In this document: positions 7,735-49,358 of the stretch, one piece after another | Layout of the letters: each line of letters starts with the position of its first letter | How positions within the stretch are numbered: position 1 is the first letter of the stretch | From: Mytilus trossulus | Taxonomy: Eukaryota | Direction of reading: 5' to 3' | DNA length: 64,000 nucleotides | NCBI RefSeq assembly: GCF_036588685.1 | Contig: NC_086385.1 | Coordinates: 36,417,216 to 36,481,215 of the forward strand | Notes under the pieces: generated by a model | The model's database searches: none | The model's input: only the letters and a program-made list of their open reading frames with translations | What the model was told of the DNA's origin: nothing | Position numbers and translations under genes: made by a program

Positions 7735-9474
7735 TCAATCAGCAGAATGTTTACTGCATTTAACGTCAAACAGAAAGGCAACTTCATGATAGTTAGCAAC
7801 AAGAAGTACGTTTTTGGTTTTATGGAAATATACGGCACGAGGATTAAAAATTCCATCACTAGCTCCAATGAGCTGTTTGGCCTGTTTTCCATCTTTAGAT
7901 ATCACTACAACATTATTTGATTCAGACCCAGCAACATATATGTTGGAATATGAATCTAAAGTTATGCCGTATGGTTTTCTAAGCAATGAATCAGAATATG
8001 TCCATTGTACCTGTCCATTGTAATTGTAACATACGACGGAATTAGTACGCCAGTTGGAATGAAAAATGTTCTTTTCATTTGAGGTAACGTACGTCTCATC
8101 TACGTCCATAGGGGCAGAAGGTAATATACGGATGTTATTTTGTTTTTGAGACGTGTCATATAGTTTAATTCCATTTTGATGTGTGCAACAAATAAGCAAT
8201 CCATTGTGACAGCTTAAGCCATAACACCAGTCGCTGAGGTCATTCACTTTGAGCAATTTTGCATTATTCATATCAATAAAGTGAATGTTTGTTGGATGAT
8301 TTCCGCCACTTGATACGGCCACCGTTTGTGAATCAACCACTGCCAGGTCGTAACCAATAGCGGTTTGCTCATTTATAATACATGATTCGGAATTTAATTC
8401 ACCATTAGGACAATATGTAAGCAGATTATTATTGTGAGCTTGTAGAAATAACATGTTTCAAGCTTCTGATATGGCACATCCTGTTAGATAATTACGACCA
8501 ATGTTAATCTTTTGTACTAGCTTGACGTGTATTTCTTCAATCGATGTCGGTCCTGAAGTAGATTTATAAATTTGCGCTGATTGGTCACTTTTCCATGAAT
8601 ATGAAACATGCTTTTCAGAAGAATCCATCTTCATATCTCCAAGTGTATTTATTTCTTTGATAATCGCTTCTAGCTTTTCATTGAACGTAAATTGTAATGA
8701 TAAGTTGTTTAAACTCCCATTATCATACAATTTCTGGACGTTAATTTCATTGATGGAAACACTTTCTATGAATGCCTTTATTCCCATGAAGATTTGCAGA
8801 TTTGATGCAAACAGTTTTACAGATTCAACGTCTTTTTGAACTTCGTCTACTTTCTTTTTTTCTTCATTGAGTTTTGCAATCACTTCTTCTATTTTCTGAC
8901 TGTTATTTTTTTCCATTCTAGATGCTTTTTCTAGAACTTCCTCTTCTAAATGGTCTAAAAGCATAAGTATTTGTTGGCGTTTTTCTTTTATATTTTTTAC
9001 AATCACTTGCTTCTGTTCACGTAACTCTGTCAAGTTTCGCCTTCTGTCCTTTATAGCAGTAGAAATGTTACTTTCCAGATCTTTCAGAACTTTTTCAATG
9101 TTATCCAAAGGTACTGATTGGTGTCCTTTTGAAGGCGTAAGAAAATGTTCAACGAAAATAATGTCCGTGCATTCCTTATGAGCTGATATCGAACAAAGTT
9201 TACAGCAAAGAGAGTCATGAGATTTGCAATAAAATTCAAGGAAGCAGTCATGCTCCTCACAGTTTTGTTTTATTTTCTTGATAAATGATGGTAATTTTTG
9301 ATATTTTTCAATAGAGATTGTCTGATGCGATTTGAGTAATTTCGATGCCTTATGATGGTCTCTACAGTCTCGACACAGAGCCTCTTCACATTGTGGACAA
9401 TATTCTTCTGCTGACGTATTAAGGTGTCTGTTTTGGCAAACATTGCAGAGTAGTACTCTTTCGTTGGTGGCCAT
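7735..9474 (-). pseudogene. TRIM-like gene, copy B; single nonsense codon GGA>TGA at 8458-8460
   Basis: ORFs 8458..9735 and 7735..8454 share a frame and are separated only by TGA-AAC. Duplicate copy E reads EAGNMLF there. Likely start MATNER at 9474 (579 codons). NHL-like blades: LRKPYGITLDSYSNIYVAGSESNNVVVI, IFNPRAVYF. Confidence 0.9.
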
Positions 9475-10904
9475 ATCTAAATGATTGATAGTTTTTATTA
9501 TTTTCAAAGGGTGCCTTACAATTTCCAAAATTCTTCTTCTGCAATCCAGTTTGTAAGCCTTAGGAAAAAAATAGGAAGAAAAATTAAGTGCAACGATTTC
9601 TGTATTCAATTTTGGTGTTTCTTTTAATGAAAGTCTTAGTATGAAATTCCATACATTAATACTGTACCTAAAATTTGTCAACGTAAAATTAAAAAGATAC
9701 AAAGATACAAAAGATACATATTCCATATAAAGCATAACACGTGTTATGAAGCTATTTTATAAATAGCAATTAGTATTTTAAATTAAAATAAAACATTAAT
9801 TTGTAGACAGAAAATTATATACTGATTGATGAAAATCTGTGTACTAGCACAACTAACCATATGATATGTTTTATCCTTATGTTAACAAGGCCAGGATAAG
9901 GTTCCTGTATTTGAGGTATCTATTAACAAATGAAAATATGTTAATAAAATTCTGTTTGAATATAAAAATATGCAAAAAACGATTAGTCATGTTAATTATT
10001 TCAAAGTCTTGCTAGGTCTTTATATTTTAACCTACCTCAAATATTCGGTAACAACGGACGCGGAAATACGCACTAGGTTTCAGGTTTATGCATAGTTTTT
10101 TCAGCTATCTCCCTTTCTCTAAACGAACGAAATACGAACCTGATCAATGTGAAACTGGCCCAAAGAGGTAAATTTGTTGTGTTTTTGTATTGTACAGGTA
10201 TAAAACTTATATAAAAACTTTTTATGTCATTTGAATATATTTTCTATATTTGACTGTATAACTAAGGTTGATTTCATTTTCCTTTGTAGTTTTCACGTTA
10301 ACTTCAGTACGATGGTCACCCCAACACTTCTATGACAACATTATTGTGTGTGTATTAACGTTCATACGTGCTATGCCAATAAACAATTAGAATGCATTGA
10401 GTTTAACTATGAGAACTTTACTACTGCTACATATGCGAAGTGATTATGAAAGTAATTGATGTCATATTCTACGTGTTCAAGATTTCAAGACTGATTGCTT
10501 TGCAGATTTTCTTTTGACTATATGGAACGGAACCTCTCATATCTCTGTTTATATTTTTGATTGTTAATGTACTTTGATATTTCAATATCATTTCCCTTAC
10601 TCGACGTGTTAATTCTGTTATAAAAAAGACATTTCAATAGCATAAGTTTATATGCTGCCCTGTTTTCTAGATTTAAACTGGCTTTACTGATACTTAGAAT
10701 ATTATGAACTAATTAAAGGGTCAGTAGCGCCTACAATATATTATAGTAAAATGCATACCCCTATTAAAAACCAAATCATCAACCTCAATCTTTTGAATGT
10801 ATTACTATTGGTCACCAGTTCAATTAAACTATACTTTCTTCAATATACGAGTATATGAATCTTAAACATGTACATGTACAAAATGGAAAGATAATTAAAA
10901 ACCA

Positions 10905-13930: not shown

Positions 13931-14022
13931 TACAAGACAAAAACACAGGTGTATTTATGTATTTATGGATAGAAAATTAACGTGTTTCCGATTTATATTT
14001 TTAATTGTGAAGCGATTGTGAA

Positions 14023-15329
14023 ATGGCAGAAGGCCGGGACAATCTTGGAATAATTCCTTATGATTACGAACCGGAGTTTACGCAAGAAGAACTGCAAAAT
14101 ATAAGAGAGACATCGCCGATCACAAATCTTGCAACTTTAGAAGATTGGTGCAGTTGCAATGCATGTGAAGAAATGCCTTCGCCGGAGGAATGTATTTGTT
14201 GTTGCTCCTCTGAATATGTGCAACCGAACATTGATGACTTGGAGTGCATAACTGAACACCCTCAGTTTCAGCTGATCGTCCTTAATTCAGACGTTTTGAC
14301 AGTGGCATTTATTCAGATATTTATGTTTCAAGGAAATGCAGGTCGTGTCCCGGATAATTTAACAAATCAGTAAGTCAATTTTACATCGAATATTAAGCTT
14401 ACTAAATTTCGTAAATTGCTTAAAATTCTCGCTATCTTTATCTAACATTCATTGACATTCTCAACAACAACAAAAATGAAAAAAAGGGGGGTGCACATCT
14501 GCCTCCTCTCACCTGATAAAATGTTTTTATTATTAGTATTGACACTCTTATATATAGTCTAGCATGGAAGTAAAATCAAAGATATGAAACTTTGAAATAA
14601 CTAAACTAATTTATATATATATGTGAAAAAAAAATATGTTTCCATTTATATGTTTTAAAATGCCACATTATTTAAGTGTCCGTACCAAGTCAGGAGCCTC
14701 TCTAGAAGTTGACGTTTGTTTGTGTGTTACATATTTGTTATTGTTTATTTTTTTATATAAATAAGGACGTTCGTTTTCTCGATTGAATTGTTTTACATTA
14801 TCATATCGTGGCCATTTATAGCTGACCGGCTATGCAGTATGGACTTTGCTCATTGTTGAAGGCCGTACAATAATCTACATGTATAGTTGTTAATGTCTGT
14901 CATTTTGGTCTCTTGTGGACAGTTGTCTCATTTGCCATCATACCACATCTTCTTTTTTATATTATGTGTACAAAATGTAACTGTAATGAATAACAAGATA
15001 TTGTAAAATAAAGAACTTTGAACTCTACATGTATATATGTTAAAACCCATAATTACCACAACTAATTAAACTGATTTGACTGTTGTATTTATTAAAATAT
15101 GATAAAAAGCAAAATATTAATTATAATTGTCTTACTTTTCAGGCAGTCAAGGTTGACAGCCTACAGGCAGTTTGTATATTGGATGCTGAGAAGAGAAAAA
15201 CTTGGAAAAGGAAAGAGAGTTGTTATCCCATCGTGTGTGGTGAAATGCATTCGTGAAGCATTTCCAGAGTCAAATGGACATTACACAGGTTTTAGAACAG
15301 TATTTGACAATAGTTCACATTTGTTCTAA
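14023..15329 (+). CDS. KolX-like / P2X7 C-terminal (ballast) domain protein; exons 14023..14369 and 15143..15329; 177 aa; intact
   Basis: Donor CA|GTAAGT at 14370, acceptor TTTTCAG| at 15142, phase-2 join in frame. Motifs PYDYEP, WCSCNACEEMP..EECICCC, CITEHPQF, RLTAYRQF, GKGKRVVIPSCVVKCIREAFP...YTGF. Confidence 0.85.
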
Positions 15330-15436: not shown

Positions 15437-18400
15437 TCAATCACAAACTTTGTTAAATCTTGAAATAAGATTATGAACTAGTTCAGCCTTTTCCGGTGCT
15501 GGTACAGGTGCAATATTGCCCTGATTTTTTGTGTCAATTTTGGGAAAGATCATCTCTGCCTTTTGCAAAACACACATTTTCATCATTGTGTTTACCCACT
15601 TATATGTCTTAGTGTTATACACTGGTTTAGCTACCCATTTTGCTGTTATCTTTGAGTACACAGTTTTGTACACTTCATTTCCTTGTGCGTCAATTTTTTT
15701 TCCACGGTTTTGTGACATATTGTGGTCAATTACTGCTAGCGATGTTCTAGCATTCATCTGGTCAAAGTCAAATTCTTGTCGCTTTGGAACATATTTTAAA
15801 AGCAAGCTATGGTACACCTCCAAATTTCCAGTGTGGCAGAACTCGCTTAAATGTTTAATGTCTTTCCTTAACCGTTTATTAAGGATAACTTCTTTCAAAG
15901 CATTGTGTGCTTTCGAATCCTTCACAAGCCACCTTTTTTTTTCAGCTATAGCTGGTGTTATCTCTTCGTGTGCACAGGATGTGACTGCCTTGCCCTCGAA
16001 TGTGTGCAGGTTTATCACATGATGAACGATTGAAACCCAGCTTTCCTCTAACCATTCCTTATCCCCGTTGCAATTGCTTGCACACCACCATAGGTGATTG
16101 CAAATAGCCTTAATCCATGGTGCAAGGTCTTCAGCTCCCCTCAGTTTGGCTTTTTGTTGGAGTTTTTTGCGTACACTTTTTGCCAAATGCCATACATCAA
16201 ACTGGTGTTCAGTCTCAGGATATTGTTTGTTCATCACACTTCTTATCTGGACATGTCGATCAGTTGCAAGAACAGTAATTTGAAAACCTTTGTCTAAAAG
16301 GTACTCCATACATCGACGGAAACCCTCTACCTCCATCTTAGAGGAACTCCCAGTTTCAGTAACTTTGATAGTGACAAAAGCCAATATGTGTTGTGTTTCA
16401 ATGTCAAGTAATGAATATGTGCAGTATTTGGCATTGAAACCAGGTGAATCACACCTACCATCTCCTGCAAGCCTTAGTGGTCTATTTGAAGCTTTCACTT
16501 TGTCTAATAATTTTCCCTGTATAACCGTCCATGTGTGTGCAATAACTGGCATAATAATTTCTCGTTGTATGGTGTAGTAGGTTGAACTTCCAATAAATTT
16601 TAAATTCATGAACTCAGCAAATTGGGCTATGTGTGTGTAGGTTTGACCACATAACATTGTAGCAGCAGTGACTAGTAAGTTGCCAGCTGGCATGTTGCCT
16701 ATGAGAGGTTGGGATAACCACTTATAGACAAGATGCCCACTGGTACAGAACACAGAAACTCTGATGATGGTACCAGATGAACAATCTTTTTTAGTGTCTG
16801 ACAAATCTACTGGACAGTTGCACTCATCACATTTAAGCCTAGCAAAGAGTTGATCCAGTTTGGTTTCAAAAACAATAAATTTTCTTTGATTAGTAATGCA
16901 AGCTTGAGTATCAGAGGCTGCAGTACTATCATCTGAATCTATGCTCTCATTTCCTTCATTTTCATCAGAATTTTGGATATCACGGTCGATGTCAAAGGTC
17001 AAGTCATTCTTATCATCACTGAAAGAATGACTTGCAATTGAGCTGTTGAAAATATCATTCTCTTTTATTGGAGTTGAGATTGAGGACGGAGGTATCTTAG
17101 GTATTGGAGTTAATGGCCAAATAGCTAAAGTCTTGTCTGTTGTTTCCATGGTTATATCAGTGTTTACTCCTATTGTACAAGTTGATGGTCCAATTCGCTT
17201 GGTGTAGCTGTGATCTGCTGTTAGAATTGATGACTCGATTTTATTTGCTTGCAAACACATCATACATGGATGACCACATGCGTTTCCTGAATATGTGACT
17301 GATAAAATGGAAGACGAATTTGGTGGTTCCTGACTGTGCAATTCTACCATGTCTTCTGTTTCAGGGACTTCAATTTGTCCACTGCATTCTACTGTTTCAA
17401 GAACTTCAATTTGTCCACTGCATTCTCCATGGGGCTCAGAAAAAATGCTCTATAACAAAAAATGCTTGAAATAGTATTTATAATACACAATAGAACCTTT
17501 TCCTTGTTTGTCTTTATGACTTATAATATTTAATTAGAATTGTTTCAAAATTGAAACATATTTATTAAAGTTCCCCAAGCTGGATTTTTTTTTATAACAT
17601 ATTTAGATATTCAAATTAATAAGATTTGCCTACAAAATATTTGTAAAATTAATTGGTTGTTTGTTGTTTGCTCAACACCCAGTGGCAAATATTTCATGCA
17701 TGTTCAGGAGGGTAATAAATAGAGGCCGTCGGGGATGAAGGTCGAGGAAATCAAATCTTTGTACAAAACAATGTACTTTTGCATACCTGATCCTGTAAAG
17801 GTAAAGTCTCTGATATGACTGGAGGTGTAGAACATGTTGCCGCTTTTGGGTTTTCAATAGACAGTATAGTCTCTTTCTCGACCTGAAAAAAAATAATGAA
17901 ATAAAATAAATACACGATGTTTATTGGATATATGTTGTATTTCACCGACCAACCTATCCCCCTCGTGTCCCCTATTTTCTCTATTTGTACTAGTTTTGCA
18001 TACCTGATTCTGTAAGGTCAAAGTCTCTGAACTGACTGATGGTGTAGAACATGTTGCCGCTTTTCTTTTCTTTTTAAACAGCTTAATCTCTTCTTTGACC
18101 TGCAAAAAATAATCAAATAAAATAAATAGACGATATTTATTGAAATTTAGCTTTTATGCCGACCCCAAACACCCCCTTTTTTCTCCCGATATTTTTTCCA
18201 AATTTTCACTTGGATAATAGCAGTTTTTAAAATATCTCTTGTTCTCTTCTCTTGTGTAACTGCACATTCTATTTTATTTAAATAACTAGATAAACGAATA
18301 TTTTGCATTCCAGTAGCACAGACTAAAACTGGATTTTAGAACCTAATCAATATAAAAGTCAAATAAGACAACACATACGAGACCAGGTTTCAGGACTTTA

Positions 18401-21627: not shown

Positions 21628-24109
21628 TAATTAATGTTAATATTTAACAAAAGTAAGTGCCGATACGTGCCCTTTATACTAGCCTAACTTTCGTTTTCTC
21701 AAAAGCAAAAGAGTCTTATAAAGCAGCATACTACTAATTAAAAAGGAATGAAAATATATATTGACAAATTCTATGCCTTATATTTAAAAATCACCATAGA
21801 TCAAACAAGTATACCTTAAAATAACATCATAGTATTGTACAAGGAATGTATGATTATTATTACAAACATTTTTTTCAGATTTTAAATTAAATTATCAATC
21901 TTAATATAACTATGATTTTTCCAACAATAGCTATCGCGCACGCGCAATTTAACATAATGTCTGAAGTGCTATTGTTTGAAAAAAAATATTAAAGATTACA
22001 TAATTGTTATTTTAACATCACTCCAGTTGTCATTGAATACTAATAAGCATTTAATTATAGCCCGATACGAAAATTTTCATAACAAAAAAAACCCAATTCT
22101 TCATATTGTCAGTTCATATTTTGAATTACATTTGCAAGGATGAAATTTACAGAAAAGGTATGAAATTAAACTCGTATTTTTTTTTCTATTTTCAAATATT
22201 GTTATTCAAAAATGTTTGGATGATATTTTTTTATAAGATTGCCATCCTACTTTTCCAATTGACGGTTGATTTCCTACTTTTTATACGACCCCAAGATTTT
22301 GTGGGGGGATTCGTGTAATGCTATGATGTCGTCTGCGTCGTCTGTATCGTCGTTGTTGTTGTCGTCGTCGTCCGAATACACATTTGGTTTACGGACAATT
22401 ACTTATGTTCTAGTGAATGGATCTTTATAGAATTTTAAAAGAATGTTCAATACTACACAAGAAAGGTTTGGATTGATTTTGGGGTTAATGGTACTAACAG
22501 TTTCGGAATAAGGGGCCACAAAGGGACAAACAACAGCATTTTTGTAGTTTAATTTCAGACTATAACTTGTATGTAAGTGTATGGATTATCTGACATTGCA
22601 CCACAATGTTTTACATTACAAAGGAAAACTGGGATTTAATTTAGGGATAATAGCCTCAAATAAGAGTCAAAGAAGAGGCCAAAATTAAGCATTATTTCTA
22701 GTTTCCATACAATAACTTGTGTTTAAGTGTATGGGTATCTCTTCAATTTTACTAAAAGGTTCAATGCTACAAAAGAAAAGGCAGGTATTGAGTTGGGGGT
22801 AAGTGCTCCAAAGGGTGGGGGGTTAAATAAAATTGGGGGGAGTTTTTTGTTCAAAACGTTTCAAATTCATTTTTTTTTAAGTTTCACGAAGAAATCTTCA
22901 TTTGGGAAGTGCTATTTTGCAGGTTGCAGGTTGCGGGTTGCAGGTTGCAGGTCACACATAAATATTATATGTATGTAAATACATGTATAAAATCTACCCC
23001 ATGACTAATAAATTTAAAATTATTTAAAATAATTCAATAATCATAATTTTAATACACATACATGTATCTTATAATGCTAATTCTACTTCTTAATTGCTAT
23101 TAATATAGTTCTAAACATTGATTCCAATTAAGTGAAAGCAATAAAAACTTGACATGGACTGAACAGGTTCTATAGAACATATTTTTCTGTATTAATCTAG
23201 TTTCATAAACAATTAAATTCCTTTTGGTGGACATCCAACATCGTTGAGGCTTATATTAAGAAATTATTAGGTTTAAATAATTGTATAAATGCCCTTTCTT
23301 GCATGAACATAATTTAGCGCAAAAAACAAACAAAATAACTTCCTTCCCTTTATCTGATAAGAATTGTATCCTTGAGATCGCTAAATAAAGAGGACAACCT
23401 AAATATAGATAAAGATTTTCCCAAAACTATATTCGGGAACCCTTTTGGCTGAATAGTTATATTTATCATTGGTTGCATCATGTTTATAAAACATTGTTAA
23501 TTAGTCTTTAACAATATTTTTGAATATTTCATCATTTAAAAATACTAATTGTGCAGATAATGGTCAGATGTTTAATATTTGATAAACATTGACAAGAGAG
23601 AAGACCGTGGTCTTAAAAAGACATTTTTTGTCTATCTATGCTTTAAACAAAATAAGTATTCTTGATTTACAACCTCATCGTATTGTGCAAACTTGTACGG
23701 TAACTATCAATAAAATGTGTACTATTTTTAGATTTGAAATCTACTTACCAATCTAAATATAACAAATGTGGACTTTCCAACTAGAGCTATCGAGCAATTT
23801 AAAACTGTGTTTGACGTGCTTTTTGTGTAGAAAATCTTACCGATTACATCATTATTATTTATTCATCACTTCAGTTGTCCTTGAATACTGATAAGCATTT
23901 AATTATAGTCTCAATGAAAATTTTCATAACAATAAAAAGAATAAAAAGCAAATTTTCATTTTATCGGTTCATATTTTGAATAACATTTGCCAAGATGAAG
24001 CTGACAGAAAAGGTATGAAATTAAGCGCATTATATATTTCAAGACTATTTTCGAATCTGATTAGTCACAAATGTCTAGATGGGATGTGTTTTTAAGATTT
24101 TTATCCTAG

Positions 24110-24168
24110 GTTTTATACGACTGCAAAAATTTTGGTTGTATATTGGTATCACGTTGGCGTCGTCGTCT

Positions 24169-24203
<35 letters not shown>

Positions 24204-25685
24204 CGAATACTTTTAGTTTTCGCACTCTAACTTTAGTAAAAGTGAATAGAAATCTATGAAATTTGAACACAAGGTTTATGACCACAAAAGAAAGGTTGGG
24301 ATTGATTTTGGGAGTTTTGGTCCCAACAGTTTAGGAATAAGGGGCCAAAAAGGGCACAAATAAGCATTTTCTTGGTTTTCGCACTATAACTTTAGTTTAA
24401 GTGAATAGAATTCTATGAAATTTTACACAAGGTTTATGACCACAAAAAAAAAGATTGTGATTGATTTTGGGAGTTTTGGTTCAAACAGTTTAGGAATTAG
24501 GGGCCAAAAAAAGGACCCAAATAAGCATTATTCTTGGTTTTCGCACAATAACTTTAGTATTAGTAAATAGAAATCAATGAAATTTAAACACAAGGTCTAT
24601 AACCACAAAAGGAAGATTGGGATTGATTTTGGGAGTTTTGGTCCCAACAGTTTAGGAATAAGGGGCCCAAAGGGTTCAACATTAAACTTTGTTTGATTTA
24701 ATCAGAAATTGAATAATTGGGGTTCTTTGATATGCCAAATCTAAATGTGTATGTAGATTCTTAATTTTTGGTCCCGTTTTCAAATTGGTCTACATTAAAG
24801 TTCAAAGGGTCCAAAATTAAACTAAGTTTGATTTTAACAAAAATTGAATTATTGGGCTTCTTTGATATGCTGAATCTAAACATGTACTTAGATTTTTGAT
24901 TATGGGCTCAGTTTTCAAGTTGGTCCAAATCAGGATCCAAAATTATTATATAAAGTATTGTTCAATAGCAAGAAATTTTCAATTGCACAGTATTCAGCAA
25001 TAGCAAGAAATCTTCAATTGCACAGTATTGTGCAATAGCAAGTCTTTTCAATTGCACAGCATTGCGCAATAGCAAGAAATATCTAATTGCACAATATTTT
25101 GCAATAGCAAGAATTTTTTTAATTGGAGTTATCTTTCTTTGTCCAGAATAGAAGTTGAATTAACTTAAATCATTGTTTTATACAATATACAATGTATATT
25201 CACTGTTACTTCCAACTGATAAATTAAAACAATCTTTACCATTCAGTGATAACAAGCACTTTTTTTACATTTTAATATTTTATGATGTATTTAAATGAGT
25301 AGTTATTGTTGCAAACTCCATTAGAAATTTGAATTGAGTTCAGTTTTGGAATAAGGGAAAGGGGGATGTGAACAAAAAAATGGGGGGGGGGGGGGGGGGG
25401 GTCAATTTTACTCATTTCAGATTTCATAAATAAAAAGAAAACTTCTTCAAACAATTTTAGAGAGGATTTATATTCAACAGCATAGTGAATTGCTCAAAGG
25501 CAAAACAAAAATTTTAAGTTCATTAGACCACATTAATTTTGTGTCAGAAACCTATGCTGTGTCAACTTTTTAATCACAATCCAAATTTAGAGCTTAATCC
25601 AGCTTGAATGTTGTGTCCATACTTGCCCCAACCGTTCAGGGTTCAACCTCTGCGGTCGTAAAAAGCTGCGCCCTGCGGAGCATCT
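24110..25685. mobile_element. Helentron/HINE-like non-autonomous element with internal satellite arrays
   Basis: ttttatacgactgca at the left and inverted tgcggtcgtaaaa at the right followed by a GC-rich tail (gctgcgccctgcggagca); (cgt)n microsatellite; ~160-bp tandem units at ~24200-24690; ~32-bp units at ~24955-25110. Truncated relative at ~22277-22910. Confidence 0.6.
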
Positions 25686-26044
25686 TTTTCCATTTTAGTT
25701 TGATTTTCTTTTTATAAGATATTTTATCATGTTTATAGTAAATGTTTACAGACTATCAATTGTTCTATAATTATCATCAGAGATCGATATATCCTTTTTA
25801 TACTGCAATGTGAGAGACTTTGAAAAACAGTAACGATGACCAAATATTTTGCGGTAATAATCTCAACGAATGTCCCATGTGTTGCAAATTTAACAAATAC
25901 ATTAAATAATTAAACGATAAGTATTGTCATAGATCACAATTAGTATATTTGGTGATCTATTTTTTCTTAGCTGTAAGCATGGTAAAACAATTTCGCAAAA
26001 GTAACTTACATGAACATGATAACGGTATAGAGAGAAAACGACAG

Positions 26045-26576
26045 AATAGTTATCAAAGGTACCAGGATTATAATTGTGTACGCCAGACGCGCGTTTCGTC
26101 TACATAAGACTCTTCAGTGACACTCATATAAAAAAAGTAAAGCCAAACAAGTACAATGTTTAAGAGCATTGAGGATCCAAAACTCCAAAAAGTTGTGCCA
26201 AATACGGCTAAGGTAATCTATGCCTGGGATAAGAACATCCTTAGTTTTTCGAAAAAATTCAAGTTTTGAAAACAGGAAATTTATAAATATGACCACATTA
26301 TTGATATTCATGTCAACACCGAAGTGTTGACTACTGGGCTGGTGATACCCTCGGGGACGAAACGTCCACCAGCAGTGGCATCGACCCAGTGGTGTAAATA
26401 GTTATAAAAGCTACCAGGATTATAATTGTGTACGCCAGACGCGCGTTTCGTCTACATAAGACTCATCAGTGACGCTCATATCAAGATATTTTAAAGCCAA
26501 ACAAGTACAAAGTTGAAGAGCATTGGGGATCCAAAATTCCAAAAAGTTGTACCAAATACGGCTAAGGTATTCTATG
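26045..26576 (-). ncRNA. Non-LTR retrozyme: ~1.5 tandem 352-nt monomers with type I hammerhead ribozymes
   Basis: Minus strand gtgtca-CTGAAGA-gtct tatgt agac-GAAA-cgcgc-GTC-tggcgt (~26079-26125) and gcgtca-CTGATGA-...-GAAA-cgcgc-GTC-tggcgt (~26431-26477), 352 bp apart. Palindromic minimal stem III; cUUCGg hairpin at 26312-26331. Confidence 0.9.
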
Positions 26577-27297
26577 CAAAAGAGTGCTAGTGGTAAACGT
26601 CACTAACGGTTCTAATATTTCTGAAAAGGGTGAACCGCTCCCGTCATGATTCAGTGATTTCCTTTTAAATTAACAAAACGTTTTTTTCAAAAAGGTGGCC
26701 CTGGTTACCCACAGCCTCTTTTAATCCGCCAACGAACGTATGTTCGGACAATTACTTTAAAATTATCATTAGAATCTTAAAAATACATCAACAGATATAC
26801 ATACATATAATTATAAGATTCAAAGAAGAAGAGTTTGTATCTTCGAAAATTCTTGATCTGTCGTGTACATTGACAACCGAAACAGCTATATTTTAAAGAT
26901 TTTTTTTTATCATATTTAACATGCTTAATTTACGATATAACTGCTCAATTGTTTTTGAAGATACCATGATACAATTGATATTCGCGCACATATGCTACAG
27001 GTCAACATTGTTAATTTTTAGTATTCCAAAGTCCAATTTCTTTCTATATATAGAACATGTTTAAAAAATAATAAATGTTGTATGCTTCAACATGTTGATC
27101 ATCCTAAGCCTACAACAGATGTGTAGAAGTAGGTATAAAGTATTTCATGCGATTTGCCAGTTAAACAAATAAAGGTTTTGGATAGTCATAACTCATCACA
27201 TGTGATTTATTACAGTAAAATATGATACATGCCAAGGTCTCAAAGATTTTGTAAAGTATTACAGATATAAAATGTAACATATTGTATTTCCTTTCAG

Positions 27298-28902
27298 ACA
27301 AACTGCTGTTCCCATTGTAAACGGGACAATAATAAGTGCCTAAAGAAGAAACAAGTTTTGAAACATTTCTTAGGCGACAAAATAAATGCTTCTCTTCTTA
27401 AAAAGACAAAAACAGTACCAAACGCATATGGGTTGTACTGTATTACAAGTAATGATGCTGGTGAAGTTTTGTACGTTGGGTTTTCGAACCGTAGTGTGCG
27501 ACAAAGATTGTTGGTAAGTTTTAAAAAAAGAACTTAAAATAAAACTTTGATGTTATTCATAGTTAAACCAATGACCTTCTTTCATTTTGCGGGATTCAAT
27601 TTCAAATGAAATACAGTGCATATGCTATATTCGTTTGCTTTTATATTAATGGCCAAAATTATGTTGTCCATTGTTTTTGTTTAATTGTGATGTTAAAAAT
27701 GAAAATTAATACATTTTCTCAGATGATTCATATATTACTTATGAAATAAAATCATGTTACGACAATTGCCATCATAAACTACAGCAAAATGTTTACCTCA
27801 ACTGTCAAGGCTATCCTAGCAGATCTAAAATATACTCTTAAATGTCTCAAAGAATGGTGTTCACATAAGTCTTTTTTAAAGAGCATATAATTTTGAAACT
27901 TTAAGGACATGTGATGATTTACCGAGGAGGCGTAGGGAGGCTGGTAAAAAATGTAGAGGGATACACTTTTTCCATTATATTAGTCGTCGGGTTTATTTCA
28001 CAAAATTTGATCAAGGTTATCTCTTAAGCAATATATGCTGAATTTAACCCAAAAAATAACAGGAAAATTTATGTACAAGAAAATGTATACATTCATATTG
28101 ATAATTTTATAAAAGTCATTATGGATGCATCATCTCAAGAATCTCGCATTTCAAAGGGAATATAATGGGTAGTTATTGTTATAGACACTAGAAGTAAACA
28201 TTATGACTATCATTGAATCAAGGGCGTCGTGATTTTTTTTTGTGTAAGGAGGGGGGAAACAAATTTTTGAAAATTTAAAAATAAAAAAAAAAACAACATA
28301 TTTCCCGAAAGAAAATACCGTATTTTTTAAATGTGCATTTGGTCATGTGCTATTTGTCTGACAACAACCATTCCAAAATTGCGTGCATAAGTGGTCTCCA
28401 TTTTGTTGATACTATATGTTTCGATGTAAGGTTGGATTTTTTAGTTTTGAAACCTTACACATGAAATTGAGAATGAAAATTTGGAATCTGTCAAAGAGAC
28501 AACAACCCGACCAAAGAGCAGACAACAGCAGAAGGCCACCAATGGGTCTTCAATATTTAGCTATCAAGATAGTATTAAAAAAAATCACTGCTAAAGCCTC
28601 GCAGTTCCACATTCCTCCATAATATAATGAAAGATATGTGTTAATAATGTTATTCGTGCTAATAATATAAATCAATCTTGTCTCTTCAGGCTCATACAGG
28701 AGGATATGATAAACAGGCAATTGGTAGGTTCTTGAAAGGAAAGGATTTACGGAAATTCTCGCTCTCCTGGGTTAAGGAGCGAAAAGCGGAGTGTTTAGAA
28801 CAACAGTTTATTGAATACGTTACCCATGATCAAGGTTTTCGACCATTGAAAAAAAAAAAAGAGGGAGATCATGTGGCAAAAAGGAGGAATGAGATAATTT
28901 TT
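27298..28902 (+). CDS. Spliced GIY-YIG nuclease-like gene; exons 27298..27513 and 28690..~28902 (or 29052); 5' exon uncertain; possibly a pseudogene
   Basis: Acceptor ctttcag| at 27297, donor |GTAAGT at 27514, acceptor cttcag| at 28689, all phase 0. Joined peptide: ...VPNAYGLYCITSNDAGEVLYVGFSNRSVRQRLL|AHTGG...AECLEQQFIE...GFRPL (GLY-x11-YVG, RxRLxxH, conserved E). Confidence 0.7.
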
Positions 28903-31614
28903 ATCAGATATCATTTGTTTGGTATGCTGTATTTTTTTTATAACTCTATTGAAATGTGGCGAATTGAATTATTTTATGATCACTTATACTTTCAAAGTTT
29001 CTTCATTCATTCTTATTTGCCATTATATGTATTGAATTTATCACATCAATAAAATAAGTTTAAACAATAGGAATGTCTTTACACTTTATCTTATAATTAC
29101 ACCTTATGTAAGAATCCTGGGTTTTTGATTGGTTGATAGCCAGTGTATTTTTCACCAATTCACTGTTATCAAATGAATATCGTTCATTTTTTAACGCCGC
29201 CGGGGTATTTTCCAAAAGGATATGCCTTTTTTACCCTCTCTGCCGTGGTATTTGCCAAAAAATACTCTATCCGACTGGACGCTTGTAACGTCACGATCAT
29301 CAATGCATTTTTGAACATTAACATTCGTTGTAATTAAACAGATATATCATGTTCTTGAAGGGTATTTACGAAAAATACCAGTCTTGAGAATGAATTTCCC
29401 TCGCCTTACGGCTCGTAAAATGTAACATTCTCGCGACTGGTATTTTTCGCAAATACCCCTCCCTAACATGATATAACTGTTTATAATCCAATGTATAAAA
29501 AATAGATGTGGTATGTATGTCAAAGAAACAAATTTCAATTAAAGACTATCGGACATTGAGTGAACTTCTAAACAATCATACGTCTTACAACGAAAAACAA
29601 AACCTATGCTTATTTGTTTGTGAAGTTTGAATGTTTATCGGTTTATTCATGTTCTCATTAATATTGGATATACAAGGCTTATTTTACATTAGTCACTTTG
29701 TGGTCCTTTATAGCTTGTTGTTTTTGATGTGAGCCAAGTCTCCGTATTGAAGGCCGTATTTTGACCTATAATGGTTTACTTTCACAAAATATGACTCGAA
29801 TGGATAGTTGTCTCATTGGCACTCATACCACATCTTCTTATATCTATTATATAAACATATATATATATATGGTAGAGGGCTTTTTAAAATTTTCCCGTTC
29901 TATAAAATTAATGTAGAATGTGACATTAGAAGATCCACAAAAGAACAATATTTTATAACCAAATTCAAGCCAAAACTAAATGCGCATTAGGCTTTCAATA
30001 GCGTTACATTTAGCTTTCCATATTTCACTTTAGAACGTTTATCTCCCTTTTGTAATTGTTTTATGACGTTACGTACTTAAATACCGTCTCATAGTTACAA
30101 TTATTCGCCTTTCACCTGAAGATTGTTGTAAAACATGAAAGTACTTGTGAATATTAAATATTATATGCAGTATCCGGAAATGTTGGACTTTTTTATTTAG
30201 ATATATATATATGTATACGCCAGACACGCGTTACTTTGAAAAAACTTGCATTCAAACGTCGTTCAAGAAATGAAACAAGATACTGATTATGTTTAGTTCA
30301 TTCATGTTATTGTTTACTGTGTGAGACCCAGTATATTATTTTTGTTAAGTAGTTGTTGTAACAATGAGGTAAAATCGGCATACATTTTCATTCATAGACA
30401 GTTTCATTTTCATAAATATTGACCATAGAAAAACAATGTAAATAAAACATAACACAGAATACTTACGATTGAGCAAGATGAATTACACTCGAAATTGTCG
30501 GAAAGCAGAACTCGCTCAATTAAAGGAATCCATCAATTGTAATGATCATGACAAGCTGAAGTATAATATTTTTTGTTGTAAAGTGGCAGTAGTTGATTAT
30601 CTTTGACACATTTAGGTAAAAAAAAATCAAATACTGAAGGTTTGCAGGGATTTATGAATATCTTCTATTTTATTTAAATACTGTGGTTGTTTGTAACATT
30701 TTACACAATACAATCTTTAGCAGTTACATATGGCATATTTCAACGTTGGTGTATGTTTAACTGCATTGATAATGTTTGTCGTTATAAATTGGCATTTGAT
30801 TATTTTATACATAATATATATAATCATATTTACTGTCGGTTTTGTATATTACAAAGCGTTTCACAAGAAGTTGTCATGCTCATTTTGATAATTTTGCAAA
30901 AACTGTAAGTTTCTTGATATAAAAGATCAAAAGATGAAAGAAAAGAAAAGAAAAACAAATAGTATATAAGCCAATTTTATATATATATATATATAAAACT
31001 TACTCTGTTTTGACTGGTCGCAACACAACAAAATTGCCACCAGCTGTTTTGAGTTTTCGGTACAATGAAATAAACACATACTGTCAAACAAACGATTTCG
31101 ATTGTCATCAACAACAAAATCTATGACAACCACCTACATGTAACTTCATAATTTATTCAAGTTATTTTAAAGTACGTAAACTCATTACAGATAGCTGGGT
31201 AAAAAGTATGTATCTATGGCGCGCGATTCATCTTCAGCATCAGTGACGCTCCAACCAAAGGGTTACAAGGGTAAAATTGAATCACACTGATGGCCTAAAT
31301 GTAAATCACTTTGTTTTATTAGATAAGGTTTGTTTTCAAATGTCTTAAGACGAATATATCAATACCAAAAAAAAAAAGCTTGATGCCCTTAAGTGTTTAC
31401 GTTATTTTTATACTTGCATATAGTCGAAAGTAAAATAACATAATAACTGAACACAAGCTAGTAATATCGACCTAAGTGGATCAGTAACTCCAAAAATAAA
31501 AAGTATTATACTATGTATTAAATTAATAAAACCAACTTTTAATTGATATACACACAAATGCCATAACTAAGGAAATGGCAGAGTTGAATATTAAATATTC
31601 CATATTATACAAAT

Positions 31615-34415: not shown

Positions 34416-35960
34416 TCAAATTCTTAATTTCTTTGTCGGAATTTCAGCGGAAAAGGGCTTAGCACCATTTCCACCTGCATTACTCTTTCTGGATACTACA
34501 GAATGTCCCAAAACAACACTGTTTATACCAGTTCTATATGAGTTATATGTTGGATGGGTAGTAGGTCCATGATAGAGTGATATTTGTTGACAAAACATAT
34601 TTTCAATTATATCACTGTTCAGTCTTGCTGGTACAACTTCAGTCTTTAGGACTTCAATGCAAAAGGTGATGAGTGACATTATCCCATGGTACATAAAATC
34701 AAGGTCTTCTCTTGTTTCCATGGTAAGAAGACTCTTGTATCACCTATAGTGTCATTTTGACAAACTTGTTTTTCAATTATATGCAATACTTAATTTCATT
34801 ATTCTTTCATCACTTATATCTTTTACAGGCTGCTGATCAGTAAAAAACTCCACCAATGTACTAAAGTGTTCAAGAAATTGGATACCGCACTTAATGCTTG
34901 CTGACCAGCTTCACCACTGAGAGACTTTCTATACATTTTCATTAAATGCAACATGTCAACCTTAAGTGTTTCAAATGCCAGCTTGTTTCTCATATTTTGA
35001 GCATTGTTAGGGAAGATTTGCTTCTGAGTTAATTTATTGTGTATTAGAAACCTATGGGTATAACGATCCCAGTTATATGTATCGATCCACATCTGCCATT
35101 GAATTGTACAGCTTTCAAATGATAATAGTCTCTGGTCATGAGCTTTTATTCCACTGGATAAGACACTATTACGGATTTTTTTAATAAGATGGCAGGGATC
35201 CATGATGAAGATCATTTTTCTTAAACATGTTAAAGGGTTTTTGTAATGTGAAGCCACCTTTTTTGTCAAAAGGGGGTCATTTTCAGGAAAATGCATTTTC
35301 AGGAAAGCACAGTTATTGCTAGAATCGTCCATACATAAGTAAAAGGGTTTAAAACCCCATTCATATAATACATCAATGCATTTCCAGGTTGTGATAAATA
35401 TGTCAGCAGGTGAAGCTTGTGCATTAGGATAATTAGCAAATGGCCAACGGAAGTCAGTTATTCCATGGAAAATGTACTGCATAACATGATTTGCTAATTT
35501 ACTTTCACATTTACCTTCATTGGAACAGTGCATTAACATAACCTCAGGTTCACAATCTACCAATCCAAACAATGAGGTACCACTCCCATGGTTAACTATT
35601 TGCAGGTCCTCTTGTATGGACATTTCATTCAATAAAACACCACCATAATAGCCTTCTGTTTCAATCCTCAGCCTAACAGCCTCATTTTTTCATCCATGCC
35701 ATCATGGTAGGAATTATACCGGGTTTTTGTTTTAAAGCATTTTTATATAAATATAGAAGATTTTCAGATGGCAAGTACTAAATTATAATCCTGGTATCTT
35801 TGATAAGTAATTAAACCAACCATTTGTTGTAATGTCTTTGTATTCAGAAGGATTTCTGTTGTATATGGTCAGTGCCATGCATATTATTTCCTTTGGCCAT
35901 CTAACTCCTTTAAAATGTTTATGTGATGAAGATTCAGTTTGACTTCAAATTCAAACCTGC
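34416..35960 (-). pseudogene. Decayed P-element/THAP9-like transposase
   Basis: GVRWPKEII..ALTIY, YGGVLLNEMSIQEDL, LANHVMQYIFHGI..FRWPFANYP, CMDDSSNN, IMDPCHLIKKIRN, QNMRNKLA, ARLNSDIIENMFCQQ; several frameshifts. Confidence 0.75.
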
Positions 35961-44953: not shown

Positions 44954-46686
44954 TCAAACATCAAACAAAAAGGCAGCTTTGGCATAGTTTGCTACTAGAA
45001 GTAAGTTTTTTGTTTTATCAAAATGAATGGCACGAGGTTTTAAAAGTCCGTCACCAGCTCCAATCAGCTCTTTAGCCTGTTTTCCGTCTTGGGATATAAC
45101 TACAATATTGTTTGATGAAGAACCTGCAACATAAATGTTGGAATAAGAATCTAAGGTAATGCCATATGGTTCTCTGAGCAACAAATCAGAATATGTCCAT
45201 TTAACTTGACCATTGAAATCGTAACACACGACAGAATGCTCATAATAGTCTGAATGAAAAATAAAATGATCATTTGAGGTTACGTAGGTATCGTACATAT
45301 TCCGAGGTGCACTATGCAGTTTCCGGACGTTGGTCAAACTTTTATGCAACCGATCAAATATTTCAATCCCTTTCTCAGATATACAACAAACAAATAATCC
45401 ATTGTGATAGTTTAAGCCATAAGGATATCCGTCTACATCAATAATTTGACGGGATTCCTCATTACTACATGTAATATCAATCACGTAAATCCGATATGGA
45501 GGATTCCCCCCACCTGATACAGCTACTGTATTTGAATCGATCACTGCAAGATCATATCCAATAGAATTTGACTGAGGGTTGATTCTTGATTTGGAACGGA
45601 TTTCACCATTATGCGCATATTTCAACAAATGAACAATCTATTGTTGTACCCTTCTTAAAATAACATGTTTCCATCTTCTAAAATGACACATCCTGTAAGA
45701 CCGTTGCCATCTATGTCAATCTTACGTACCAGTCTGACATTTATGTTTTCAATTGTTTTTGCTCTTAATGAAGATTTATAAAGCTGTGCTGATTTATCAC
45801 CTTTCCAGGAAAAAGAAGTATGTTTATCAGAACTGTCTACCTTTATATCACCAAATGCTTTTATTTCATCTTTGAACTCTTCCAGTTTTTCATTGAATTT
45901 ACATTCCAAAGTTATGTTGTTAAGATTCCCATTATCGTATAATACTTGGAGTTTTATTTCGTTGGTTGAAACATTTTCCTGGAATGCCTTTGTTCCAATG
46001 AAGATCTGTAAATTGGATGCAAACATTTTTACAGATTCGAAATCTTTTTTTATTTCGTCTATTCTCTTTTTTTTGTCCTCCAATTTCATCACCACTTCAT
46101 CTATTTTCAGACAGTATTCATTCCCCATTGCTGATACTTCATCATGTAATACTCCTTCTAAGTTATCCAAAACTGTATTTATTTCTTGACACTTTTCTTT
46201 AATTTGTTCTACGATCACCCGTTTCTGTTCACGTAATTCTGTCAAATTTCGATTTCGGTCCTTTATAGCGAAACAGATGTTATCATCTAGATATTTTAAA
46301 ACCTTTTCAACGTTAGCTAAAGCTGCTGACTGATGTCTTGAAGATGGTGTAAGAAAATCTTCAATGAAAAAAGTTTCCTTGCATTCCTTATGACTTGATA
46401 TCAAACAACGTTTGCAGCACAGAGAGTCATTTGATTTACAATAAACTTCGAGAAAGCAGTCGTGCACCTCACAGTTATGGCTAATATTCTTGATAAATGA
46501 TGGTAATTTGTTATATTTGTCCATAGAGATTGTCTGGTGTGATTTTGACGATTTCGATATCTTATGATGATTTCGACAATCTCCACAAAGAACCTCTTCA
46601 CATTGTGGACAGAATTCTTCCGCCAATTTATTTAGGTCCCTGGTTAGGCAAATATCACAGAATGTTGCTATTTCCTTAGTGGCCAT
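44954..46686 (-). pseudogene. TRIM-like gene, copy C; TAA at 45655-45657 plus a frameshift
   Basis: 343-aa B-box/coiled-coil ORF ends ...GNMLF*. It then reads EGYNNRL, and the propeller ORF (44954..45628) is in another frame. Confidence 0.88.
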
Positions 46687-49358
46687 ATCTGAATTTGTTC
46701 TGTCGTATTTAAGGTCAAAGATGGTGCCTCATAATATTCACCACTCCCAATCTACCATCAACACTTTGATCCAGACCTATGAAAAAATATAAAAACTGAA
46801 AATTCTGTTTACTAAAAAGCAAAAATAAATGTTTCTTGGTAAAGTAACGCAAACTGAAATGCCCATTCCTATTGTGGATTGCTATATATATCTAACAAGT
46901 CCGACAGTCACTTGAACTTACTTTTAAACAAAATGAATTTAAAAAACAAATAAAAGTCCCACCTAAAAAAAATTTTTTTGGAAAAATCATATGACCTAAG
47001 TGCATGCAATGTTTTATCTTTGACGATGTTTAAAAATTAAAAAGAAATAAAAGAAGCATCAGTGTTGGAAATTGAACAAAATGGAATACTTTAGTTTCGC
47101 ACGACAGGTCATGCATGCATAACAAAAACTGTTTACCGTATTGACAAGCCTGGTCTCGCTCCTTTTCATGGAAATTTTCTTTCACCTTGATTTGCATTTT
47201 TTAAATGAATGGTTACGATTTGAAGACCTATTTTTAAACTGCAGTTGACTCAAATCGGACAGCTGATTTTGATTGGGGAATATTGAGCAATAATTGAGAA
47301 GTGAGAAGTTCAGATAATTGCAAACACTGTGTGTAATTCTTTGATTTTATGTAGTTTTATCCAAATATAAAAAAGAAGATGTGGTACGATTGCCAATGAG
47401 ACAACTGTCCACAAGAGACCAAAATGACACAGACATTAACATTTATAGGTTACCATACGGTCTTCAACAATGAGAAAAGCCTATACCGCATAGTCAGCTA
47501 CAAAAGGTCCCGATATGACAATGTAAAATAATTCAAACAAGAAAACTAACGGCCTTATTTATGTAACTATGTAAATGAACAAAAAATAAATATGTAACAC
47601 ATAAACAAACGACAAACACTGAATTACAGGCTCCTGACTTGGGACAGGCACACACATTAATAATGTTGCGGGGTTAAACATGTTAGCGGGATCCCAAACC
47701 TCCCCCTAACATGGGACAGTGGTATAAAAGTCCAACATAAGAACGAACTATAAAAATCAGTTGAAAAAGGCTTAACTTATCAAATGGACAAACATACAAG
47801 TGGACGTGGACGGGTACTTATAAAGTCTATTGCAGGTTAAAATTAAACGAATAAAGCTATGTATATGTATCGAAACGCATAGCCGTTTTCCGTGACGTTG
47901 TCTCATTATGGATTCTCTATTACTCATTTAATACGTCAAGTTTTTACTTTATTGACGCTGACATTTGAAATACAAAGTCTTTGAAGCAGATACGTTTGAA
48001 ATACTAGTAACTTTATATAAAAGAGAGAAAATGATAAACTAATCAGACGTCTTTTTTAAACTTACATTTGATTTATACACTTATATTTGAAATAGAATCA
48101 GACTTTGATACAGACTCAGGGTGTAATAGAGACACCTTTCAAATATGTTTGTAAGTACACGTTCTTTATTATTTCAAGTTATTTTCACTCATTCAGCAAG
48201 TACATTAAAAGTAGTTTATTTGTTGGCCCACTTTTCTAATTGTAAAACTGTATAGGAATAGTATATACTTACATGCTAGATAAATGTAGGCAGCTCTTAA
48301 GATATAGGGTTGAAAAGAGCAAACCCCATTACACGAACAATTATATAAGCTGAAAGGCACACGTATATCCTAAATTGATACGCATATATAATCTAATTAC
48401 CAGATAAATTGTTTCCGCGTTTATTTCTATAAAATCAACAGACCATGTGCCTGATGTGTTGTTTGACTTGCGGTTTCATGCATGCTTTGTTATCCGACCA
48501 AGGACATCATACCTTACGTGTTGATATCTTTTGGTTCAATTCTTAATCATTCTTATCAATAATTGATGTGAACTTTGTCGTGTGTTTGTGTGGTTTATAA
48601 TTTTTCTTTGTTTCTCGTTTTTATATAGGCCGCCATACTTAATGTACTGTTTGGTCTACGGGTGTGGTTTTGCGTGTACTCTTGTTATTGCTGGATTGAA
48701 AGTTTAAAAAATTTGATTAAAGGTCGATCAATTGAAAAACAGACCCATTATGAAATTCAGAATTTAGAATTTTACTTGCTCTTACCTGATTGTAACATCA
48801 TACAAATTATAGTTGTTGTGTATCTTCATACATTTAAAAAAAATTCTATTTAATCTTATTTATTTACCTGTAAGAATATACGTACACAAGTATGTTAAAT
48901 GTCAGTTCAAGCAGGACACATATATATCTATCTGAATAACCTTCTCTCTATTTATTACGTAATTCAACAACGTTCATTTAAGTATCTTTTTGTGTGACCT
49001 ATAAATGAAGGATAGATTTTGATTTTTTTTCTTTAATCGACGTTTATCCTGGGCTGAAAGTTTTGTCAAGTCGATAGTTTGTCGTGAAAATATGGCATGT
49101 TGTATGAAGACAGTCGCTCATGTACTTTAAATCCTCCTCATGAGTTTTAACGAATATACTACAAAGATTGTAATATGTGTATTTCATTTAAAATTTGTAA
49201 CTCGACCTTGTTTTCTCTCAATCGATTTATGACTTTTGAACAGAGGTAAACTACTGTTGCCTTTGTTTATGTGGAATCAATTGCCACAGTCTCTTTTGAG
49301 GAAACAAATACAAATATAAACTATACATAATTGACATGTAAACAGTTTGTCTCCTTAA

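What the first reader, a model, noticed from the sequence alone, without database searches (positions are those of the whole stretch)
25910..29057. Hidden spliced stand-alone GIY-YIG nuclease-like gene, possibly secreted
Seen: two phase-0 exons join into a compact GIY-YIG signature (GLY...YVG.S..SVRQRLLAH...CLEQ) preceded by a Cys-rich, basic segment (TNCCSHCKR..KC). There is no adjoining RT, ankyrin or RING coding sequence, unlike Penelope EN, ANKLE1 or SLX1. A candidate first exon at ~25919-25972 (KYCHRSQLVYLVIYFFLA|GTAAGC) looks like a signal peptide but lacks an ATG by one base. A 12-A run at 28849-28860 may be frameshifted (alternative end ..RGRSCGKKEE*). Inference: an uncharacterised, perhaps extracellular or defence nuclease family within a TRIM-like gene cluster.
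Basis: partly seen in the sequence, partly recalled or inferred. Interest (0 to 1): 0.7.

Follow-up and report, generated by a model that had tools for sequence, protein, structure and literature searches.

The report
Stand-alone GIY-YIG nuclease family of molluscs
This is a real, spliced mussel gene from an apparently unstudied family of small, single-domain GIY-YIG proteins, predicted to cut DNA, found in mussels, oysters, clams and abalone; it has no secretion signal, this copy is broken at one catalytic residue while its near-identical neighbour is intact, and a role in destroying foreign DNA is likely but untested.

Summary
The spliced GIY-YIG gene is real. Exons 27298-27513 and 28690 onward join in phase 0 in RNA contigs and reads, and a published mussel qPCR amplicon spans the joint. 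The A12 run replaces 8 bases by 7, removing the invariant Asn and shifting the frame; a tandem twin 48 kb away is intact (145 aa). The genome holds 10 family loci; the seven spliced ones show dN/dS 0.08-0.20. Relatives occur in oysters, ark clam, abalone and unnamed animal-like contigs; the catalytic Y-G-R-H-E-N set is invariant in 27 aligned members. The predicted fold is GIY-YIG (best Z 9.8). It is not a Penelope endonuclease, SLX1 or ANKLE1. The nearest prokaryotic look-alikes are small stand-alone cyanobacterial GIY-YIG proteins, but origin is unresolved. I found no study of the family, only a toxin-exposure transcriptome in which one member is down-regulated. Nuclease activity is likely; defence against foreign DNA is my preferred but untested role.

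The parts
22140..22157 (+). Alternative first coding exon MKFTEK (duplicate of the next), phase-0 donor
   Evidence: N-terminus of twin isoform P0001; lies in a ~960-bp local duplication 21872-22798 / 23725-24633
23995..24012 (+). First coding exon MKLTEK, ATG start, phase-0 GT donor; no signal peptide
   Evidence: conserved in L016 and L024, with MKRTDK equivalents in L022 and L027; a run-X20 contig continues from exon 2 of the L024 paralogue into this exon (loose end at L024:5123, read by eye)
25919..25972 (+).
   Evidence: No ATG, upstream stop; stop and frameshift in the twin
26060..26566 (-). Intron-1 retrozyme-like repeat, 354-bp period, with two antisense type I hammerheads (26080-26123, 26432-26475); a sense-strand cryptic donor at 26212 is used in one RNA contig
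   Evidence: Rfam RF00163 32-33 bits, just under the gathering score of 34; joint 26210>27296 in X1, 28 letters on the short side; in-frame ATG at 26157 in this copy
27298..27513 (+). Exon 2: Cys/Lys-rich N-terminal segment, GLY (27430-27438), YVG (27472-27480), catalytic-type Arg76 (27505-27507)
28690..28892 (+). Exon 3 coding part in the family frame: His80, Glu115 (28798-28800), Pro130; family stop TGA 28890-28892
28849..28860 (+). A12 lesion: removes invariant Asn133 and shifts the frame
   Evidence: Alignment with twin: 5 substitutions and 1 deletion; X1 contig carries the intact form
28861..29052 (+). Out-of-frame read-through tail of this copy (198-aa product, record P0003); its stop lies inside an AATAAA at 29048-29053

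Best explanation
The locus is a spliced host gene of a mollusc-wide family of small stand-alone GIY-YIG proteins that lack a signal peptide and are predicted to be intracellular metal-dependent DNA endonucleases, likely used to nick or degrade foreign DNA; the copy in this window has lost the invariant Asn and is likely weakened or dead, while its twin 48 kb away is intact. Shown: gene structure, splicing, absence of a hydrophobic leader, purifying selection, conserved catalytic set, the lesion. Predicted: GIY-YIG fold. Inferred from known GIY-YIG chemistry: Glu115 holds a divalent metal, Arg76 and the two Tyr position and attack the phosphate, and each event makes one nick. Inferred: with no targeting domain, the basic N-terminal helix (pI 9.8) holds the DNA with little sequence preference, and covarying cysteine pairs may act as a redox or metal switch. 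My odds: active nuclease in intact members about 0.85; for the role, defence against foreign DNA 0.4, repair 0.25, bulk clearance 0.2, other 0.15.
For: Splice joints in RNA contigs and reads. Published primers map on exons 2 and 3 with 2 and 4 mismatches and give 70 bp on the spliced message, the printed size. Y65, G67, R76, H80, E115, N133 and G137 are invariant in 27 of 27 aligned members. dN/dS is 0.08-0.20 in 9 of 21 pairs; 11 pairs are saturated and 1 has no synonymous change. AlphaFold pLDDT 82; the top 7 structural matches are all GIY-YIG proteins. For defence, all indirect: tandem expansion to 10 loci; position in a B-box gene array; fold neighbours include T4 EndoII, Eco29kI and PD-T4-3; weak PADLOC hits, UzuA in 9 and PDC-S14 in 10 of 23 members, best E about 3e-5.
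Against: No activity, localisation or infection data. Strong purifying selection is not the signature of an arms race. P0001 itself has no PADLOC hit, and UvrC models match more members (15 of 23) than defence models do, so these hits reflect the shared motif. The only published expression change is down-regulation by an algal toxin, not induction by a pathogen. TRIM linkage is not family-wide. The first Tyr is Phe or His in several members. Whether the lesion is genomic or an assembly error is open.
Confidence: 0.55

Rival explanations
1. A DNA repair or genome-maintenance endonuclease, an invertebrate counterpart of the UvrC/Cho 3' incision domain or of SLX1/ANKLE1, recruited by a partner protein.
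For: Best sequence matches in the PDB are UvrC N-terminal domains (E 1e-5); strong purifying selection; a member responds to a genotoxic algal toxin (PMC6215123); basic and without signal peptide.
Against: Tandem expansion, a freshly broken copy and a patchy range are unlike single-copy repair genes; no UvrB-binding, RING, LEM or ankyrin domain; the UvrC match covers only 38 profile positions.
Confidence: 0.25
2. A bulk DNA-clearing enzyme (digestion, dead cells, extracellular traps), exported without a signal peptide in mussels and with one in some clams; the cysteine pairs are structural disulfides.
For: One Tegillarca cluster (4 of 4 members) has a strongly hydrophobic leader (KD 3.9); Cys113 and Cys140 covary (15 both, 8 neither, 4 discordant of 27); transcript measured in digestive gland and assembled from a mussel library; deep exon-limited contigs in 4 of 6 contig runs.
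Against: The mussel, oyster and abalone records examined have no such leader; the secreted-looking member lacks both cysteine pairs; the covariation is not corrected for relatedness.
Confidence: 0.2
3. A relic or trans-acting endonuclease of a mobile element (Penelope-like element, retrozyme helper, homing endonuclease).
For: The genome has at least 149 PF01541 matches, many in long ORFs; retrozyme-like repeats sit in intron 1 of 4 of 7 spliced loci examined.
Against: Conserved introns at the same positions in 7 of 7 loci, dN/dS about 0.1; the two cysteines of the CCHH motif are absent between the GIY and YIG boxes (PMC8557442); the five top PF01541 loci score 11-17 bits on the family profile against 128-148 for full-length members; no fused form among 7982 longer candidates (weak); the repeat has about 5000 hammerhead copies in a mussel genome (PMC7229834), so intronic copies are expected.
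Confidence: 0.05

Closest known systems
Arabidopsis GRXS16 N-terminal GIY-YIG domain (PDB 2lwf)
   Same: Best fold match (Z 9.8, rmsd 2.6, 96 aligned). A compact eukaryotic GIY-YIG domain that cuts DNA alone and is restrained through a cysteine disulfide (review PMC5890173, passages).
   Different: Fused to a glutaredoxin and plastid-located; 18% identity; our family is a free animal protein.
T4 endonuclease II, R.Eco29kI, Hpy188I, PD-T4-3 (restriction-type GIY-YIG nucleases)
   Same: Small, essentially single-domain GIY-YIG proteins; Z 8.5, 7.8, 4.2 and 6.0.
   Different: Phage or bacterial; 14-18% identity; sequence or modification specificity and oligomeric state are untested for our family.
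UvrC/Cho N-terminal domain
   Same: Best PDB sequence hit (E 1.3e-5); Z 7.8; keeps the C-terminal Asn.
   Different: UvrC carries further domains (PMC1564403 Table 1); only the N-terminal motif aligns by sequence.
SLX1 and ANKLE1/LEM-3, the two annotated human GIY-YIG proteins (PMC13179284, passages)
   Same: Host-encoded, spliced animal GIY-YIG genes.
   Different: No RING, ankyrin or LEM domain; SLX1 lacks the C-terminal Asn that is invariant here; SLX1 structures score only Z 2.5-2.6.
Penelope-like element endonuclease (cd10442)
   Same: GIY-YIG core with R, H, E, N (PMC8557442).
   Different: No RT, no CCHH cysteine pair, conserved introns, low copy number.
Small stand-alone cyanobacterial GIY-YIG proteins (L107, L108; 139-142 aa, unnamed)
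   Same: Nearest prokaryotic sequences found: 44-47 bits; L107 aligns over 94 columns at 28% identity, probability 97%.
   Different: A third of the score of family members; no cysteines; function unknown; not placed in the tree.
'GIY-YIG DC' transcript of Mytilus galloprovincialis (PMC6215123)
   Same: A member of this family: primers and contig match exons 2-3.
   Different: Used only as a differentially expressed marker; the passages read discuss it by analogy to other GIY-YIG proteins and define no family.

Membership tests
GIY-YIG superfamily | GIY and YIG boxes in a ~100-aa domain | tested here: met
   GLY/YVG; PF01541 25.1 bits against cut-off 22.6 for the intact twin; 16 of 23 members hit at E<=0.1
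GIY-YIG superfamily | Conserved Arg, His, Glu | tested here: met
   R76, H80, E115 invariant in 27 of 27; L033, not in that alignment, has His to Tyr
GIY-YIG superfamily | C-terminal Asn (motif E) in the window copy | tested here: not met
   Lost by the A12 lesion; present in 6 of 6 other spliced loci and 3 of 3 C1 loci. The motif can be absent in the superfamily, as in SLX1
GIY-YIG superfamily | GIY-YIG fold | tested here: met
   Model pLDDT 82, pTM 0.76; VIA ranks 1-7 all GIY-YIG, Z 9.8 to 4.2, next 3.6; Foldseek probability 1.00 but E only 2e-3
GIY-YIG superfamily | Metal-dependent DNA cleavage | not testable with these tools
   Needs an assay
Penelope-like element endonuclease | Same ORF as a reverse transcriptase | tested here: not met
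   Complete 145-aa ORF from ATG to stop
Penelope-like element endonuclease | CCHH motif with two Cys between GIY and YIG | tested here: not met
   At most one Cys there; definition from PMC8557442, which notes that Chlamys and Hydra clades also lack it
SLX1 | C-terminal RING finger and no C-terminal Asn | tested here: not met
   Asn invariant; protein ends 12 residues later
ANKLE1/COG3680 | Ankyrin repeats and LEM domain | tested here: not met
   Only about 45 residues precede the domain; no such Pfam hit
UvrC/Cho | C-terminal C4, UvrB-binding, EndoV and HhH domains | tested here: not met
   Cho model 14.6 bits against cut-off 367
Classically secreted protein | Hydrophobic N-terminal signal peptide | tested here: not met
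   Maximum KD 0.06 for P0001-P0003; hydropathy only, SignalP was not available
Single-gene GIY-YIG antiphage systems (Uzume, PD-T4-3, PD-lambda-1) | Profile match over the whole protein | tested here: inconclusive
   UzuA 9 of 23 members, best E 4e-5; P0001 no hit; PD-T4-3 fold Z 6.0; grouping from bioRxiv 10.1101/2024.10.26.620412, passages

The most novel reading that the evidence does not exclude
Marine invertebrates carry a third class of host GIY-YIG nuclease, besides SLX1 and ANKLE1: a free, restriction-enzyme-like DNase descended from a small prokaryotic defence-type nuclease, expanded next to TRIM-like immune genes in mussels, switched by covarying cysteine pairs, and used against viral or other foreign DNA, with a secreted offshoot in ark clams.
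Probability: 0.2. Interest if true: 0.85.

Novelty: new variant of a known kind. Interest (0 to 1): 0.55.

Why it matters
Animal host GIY-YIG nucleases are known as multidomain repair enzymes (SLX1, ANKLE1) or as parts of transposons. A conserved, expressed, catalytically complete single-domain family in farmed molluscs is a missing class. At 120-150 aa it is easy to express and assay. If it acts on foreign DNA it would add a restriction-like effector to invertebrate immunity and a candidate for oyster and abalone virus resistance. It also gives an identity to a transcript already used as a marker of algal-toxin exposure.

Tried and rejected
Simple homopolymer slip as the lesion: rejected, 5 substitutions plus a deletion. 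Viral origin: no relative in viral contigs with 2 single-protein queries or in 50,697 phage records; BFVD fold hits are generic GIY-YIG. Prokaryotic species scan gave 6 loci with partial matches only; 0 of 401 genomes of the second phylum sampled matched at E<=1e-8. The tree of 57 rows (L038 left out; L107-L110 found later, not included) leaves deep nodes open, so no donor or monophyly is claimed. Homodimer prediction gave no verdict. The scripted test of the second cysteine pair was not significant (p 0.39, loose window). First exons of the three C1 paralogues could not be identified, so their secretion status is open. The 5' untranslated sequence seen in run X20 was not found in the window. 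No listed run is on record as an RNA holder; X21 had no reads on exon 2 and X5 little cover, which says nothing about expression. X24 reads over the A run are few (2-13) and may be mislaid, so they do not settle the lesion. Earlier scan notes held nothing on this family. Two cnidarian transcriptome papers mention an unspecified GIY-YIG gene (passages); it could not be tied to this family.
Full report
Setting. The window is G000:C13:36417216-36481215 of a 1.3-Gb genome. The spliced product of the gene matches, letter for letter by eye, record P0003 (XP_063411407.1, 'uncharacterized protein LOC134694332', Mytilus trossulus, 198 aa). So an automatic gene model exists, without a name.

Gene structure. 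Exon 2 is 27298-27513 (216 nt) and exon 3 starts at 28690; both joints are phase 0. The named twin records begin MKFTEK or MKLTEK. A six-frame search found both as ATG-started 18-nt exons followed by GT, at 22140-22157 and 23995-24012, and again in the paralogues. The product has no hydrophobic leader (maximum KD 0.06) and a pI near 9.8.

Splicing and expression. Eight runs were laid. A contig of X1 joins exon 2 to exon 3 (GT..AG, depth 332), and two X24 reads do too. On the L024 paralogue, contigs of X2, X3 and X20 cover the exons at depths of about 150-1140 and the second intron hardly at all; loose ends in X3 and X20 read across the exon 2-3 joint, and one X20 contig continues into the MKLTEK exon (read by eye). 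These contig runs are RNA by guess only, and contig depth is a poor measure of expression. X5 and X24 show little, X21 nothing on exon 2, and X19 has intron contigs. Independently, PMC6215123 (passages, section 2.5, one supplement passage) reports a 'GIY-YIG domain containing protein' down-regulated in digestive gland after exposure to a toxin-producing dinoflagellate. Its primers map on exon 2 (2 mismatches) and exon 3 (4 mismatches) and give 70 bp on the spliced message, the printed size, against 1246 bp on the genome. The part of its contig that I could see encodes the intact family end; the 5' part was cut from view.

The lesion. The twin 48 kb downstream (L016) ends P-L-F-N-L-K-R-G-R-S-C-G-K-K-E-E. 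In the window, 8 bases are replaced by 7 A, making the A12 run: 5 substitutions and 1 deletion. This deletes Asn133 and Gly137 and adds an unrelated tail ending at 29052. Elsewhere the coding regions differ by 2 nonsynonymous changes in 124 codons and the introns are about 97% identical; both copies belong to a segmental duplication of about 48-55 kb. The X1 contig carries the intact form. I put 65% on a real young lesion in a redundant copy and 35% on an assembly error.

The family in this genome. Exon searches gave 7 spliced loci, four on C13 and three on scaffold C40, in three types at 100-86%, about 57% and about 51% identity. Three divergent queries added three loci on C1 whose core is one exon. 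C40 may be a second haplotype: long stretches of it match the window at 95%. All 7 spliced loci keep both splice sites of exon 2. dN/dS is 0.08-0.20 in the 9 of 21 pairs where it can be computed.

The family elsewhere. phmmer over 1.84 billion representatives gave 24 proteins at E<=0.001. Of 20 clusters looked up, 7 carry mollusc names (Mytilus, Crassostrea/Magallana, Saccostrea, Haliotis, Tegillarca) and 13 are unnamed or 'hypothetical'; one search added M. edulis, M. californianus and a second H. rubra gene. Most are 115-165 aa. A metagenome scan gave 15 loci; 6 match most of the protein and lie in gene-poor, repeat-bearing, animal-like DNA, three with an acceptor-like site just before the ATG; their hosts are not named and the taxon is untested. 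Y65, G67, R76, H80, E115, N133 and G137 are invariant in 27 aligned members. A search for forms of 294-2000 aa found none among 7982 candidates, which is weak evidence.

Fold and relatives. AlphaFold2 on a 23-row alignment gave pLDDT 82 and pTM 0.76, with residues 1-12 unsure. VIA-align ranks seven GIY-YIG proteins first: GRXS16 N-terminal domain Z 9.8, T4 EndoII 8.5, UvrC 7.8, Eco29kI 7.8, I-TevI 6.7, PD-T4-3 6.0, Hpy188I 4.2; SLX1 scores 2.5-2.6. Differences under 1 are ties, and a shared fold shows no function. On a family profile, full-length members score 128-148 bits, the partial prokaryotic and metagenomic hits at most 41, and the genome's top five PF01541 loci 11-17. In a sample of 401 genomes of the cyanobacterial phylum, 4 matched at E<=1e-8; the best are stand-alone 139-142-aa proteins, one aligning over 94 columns. 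The Atlas also points to small prokaryotic and viral GIY-YIG clusters (leads only). The tree does not resolve deep nodes, so horizontal origin is a hypothesis.

Cysteines and secretion. Cys at E-2 and Cys after the N..G motif occur together in 15, are both absent in 8 and disagree in 4 of 27 (Fisher p 6e-4, not corrected for relatedness). A second pair looks similar in the alignment columns but failed my scripted test (p 0.39). The GRXS16 domain is restrained through a disulfide (review PMC5890173, passages), a precedent only. One Tegillarca cluster has a strongly hydrophobic leader in 4 of 4 members (KD 3.9), so a secreted offshoot probably exists; other hydrophobic-looking starts (P0006, P0027) look like intron read-through.

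Neighbourhood. The window holds five B-box genes on the opposite strand, most with a downstream propeller region, and the array runs on to about 36.53 Mb; two more family genes lie just beyond it. No B-box match was found around two of the C40 copies or in long ORFs near the C1 copies. Linkage to TRIM-like genes is therefore local.

Mechanism. Shown: a spliced, selected, leaderless single-domain gene family with the full catalytic set. Predicted: the fold. Inferred from established GIY-YIG chemistry (residue roles partly recalled; R, H, E, N named as catalytic in PMC8557442): one-metal nicking of DNA. Inferred: low specificity, because there is no targeting domain. For the role I favour action on foreign DNA (0.4) over repair (0.25) and bulk clearance (0.2). 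The basis is expansion, turnover and resemblance to single-gene restriction-type nucleases; against it stand purifying selection and the lack of infection data.

Literature. Ten full-text searches (listings, with passages read in 11 papers) found no description of this family. The 2006 classification (PMC1564403, passages and section 6 part 1) lists eukaryotic members only as SLX1 and MutS fusions, ankyrin/LEM proteins, Penelope and homing types. The library lacks most subscription papers, and bioRxiv supplements were not seen.

Verdict. A real and apparently undescribed family within a well-known superfamily; not secreted at this locus; this copy is damaged. Novelty: new variant of a known kind. 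Interest 0.55.

Noticed in passing
window 26060-26566: Retrozyme-like repeat (354-bp period, two antisense type I hammerheads) in intron 1. One RNA contig splices from its sense-strand donor at 26212 into exon 2, and this copy and the twin have an in-frame ATG that would give a 19-residue alternative N-terminus: possible exonisation. Similar repeats sit in intron 1 of L024 and L026.
   Followed up: partly
window 24010-25690: A repeat in intron 1 draws very deep, strand-biased RNA cover (up to about 3600 in X21); no Rfam match; identity unknown.
   Followed up: no
window 2518-35285 against 56972 to about 86600 (window coordinates extended): Recent segmental duplication of about 48-55 kb (94-99% identity) carrying a B-box gene and the GIY-YIG gene; 10.9-19.4 kb is largely missing from the second copy.
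   Followed up: partly
window 14011-14373 (+) and 15437-17449 (-): Mutator-like transposase ORF (670 aa, PF20700) convergent with a P2RX7_C-domain ORF; probably one DNA transposon, absent from the duplicated copy.
   Followed up: no
window 34416-35689 (-): Broken transposase with a TNP-like RNase H N-terminal domain (PF21787).
   Followed up: no
window 44-1261, 7735-9756, 44954-46728, 51927-53655, 62557-64000 (all -): Array of intronless B-box, coiled-coil and propeller genes with no RING hit; several are split by a stop or frameshift between coiled coil and propeller.
   Followed up: partly
L069, L070, L071 (G000:C1): Three more family genes with a single-exon core and Phe in place of the first Tyr; first exons not found.
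   Followed up: partly
P0022 cluster (Tegillarca granosa): Family members with a signal-peptide-like leader and an Arg/His-rich linker, pI 11.3: a likely secreted offshoot.
   Followed up: partly
L107:1468-1887, L108:1411-1839: Unnamed stand-alone cyanobacterial GIY-YIG proteins of 139-142 aa, the nearest prokaryotic relatives found; candidate single-gene defence nucleases.
   Followed up: partly
G000:C40 (L024, L026, L027, L030, L102): A 4-Mb scaffold repeats the three gene types and nearby window sequence, with dS 0.3-0.6 in the genes: possibly a very divergent second haplotype.
   Followed up: no
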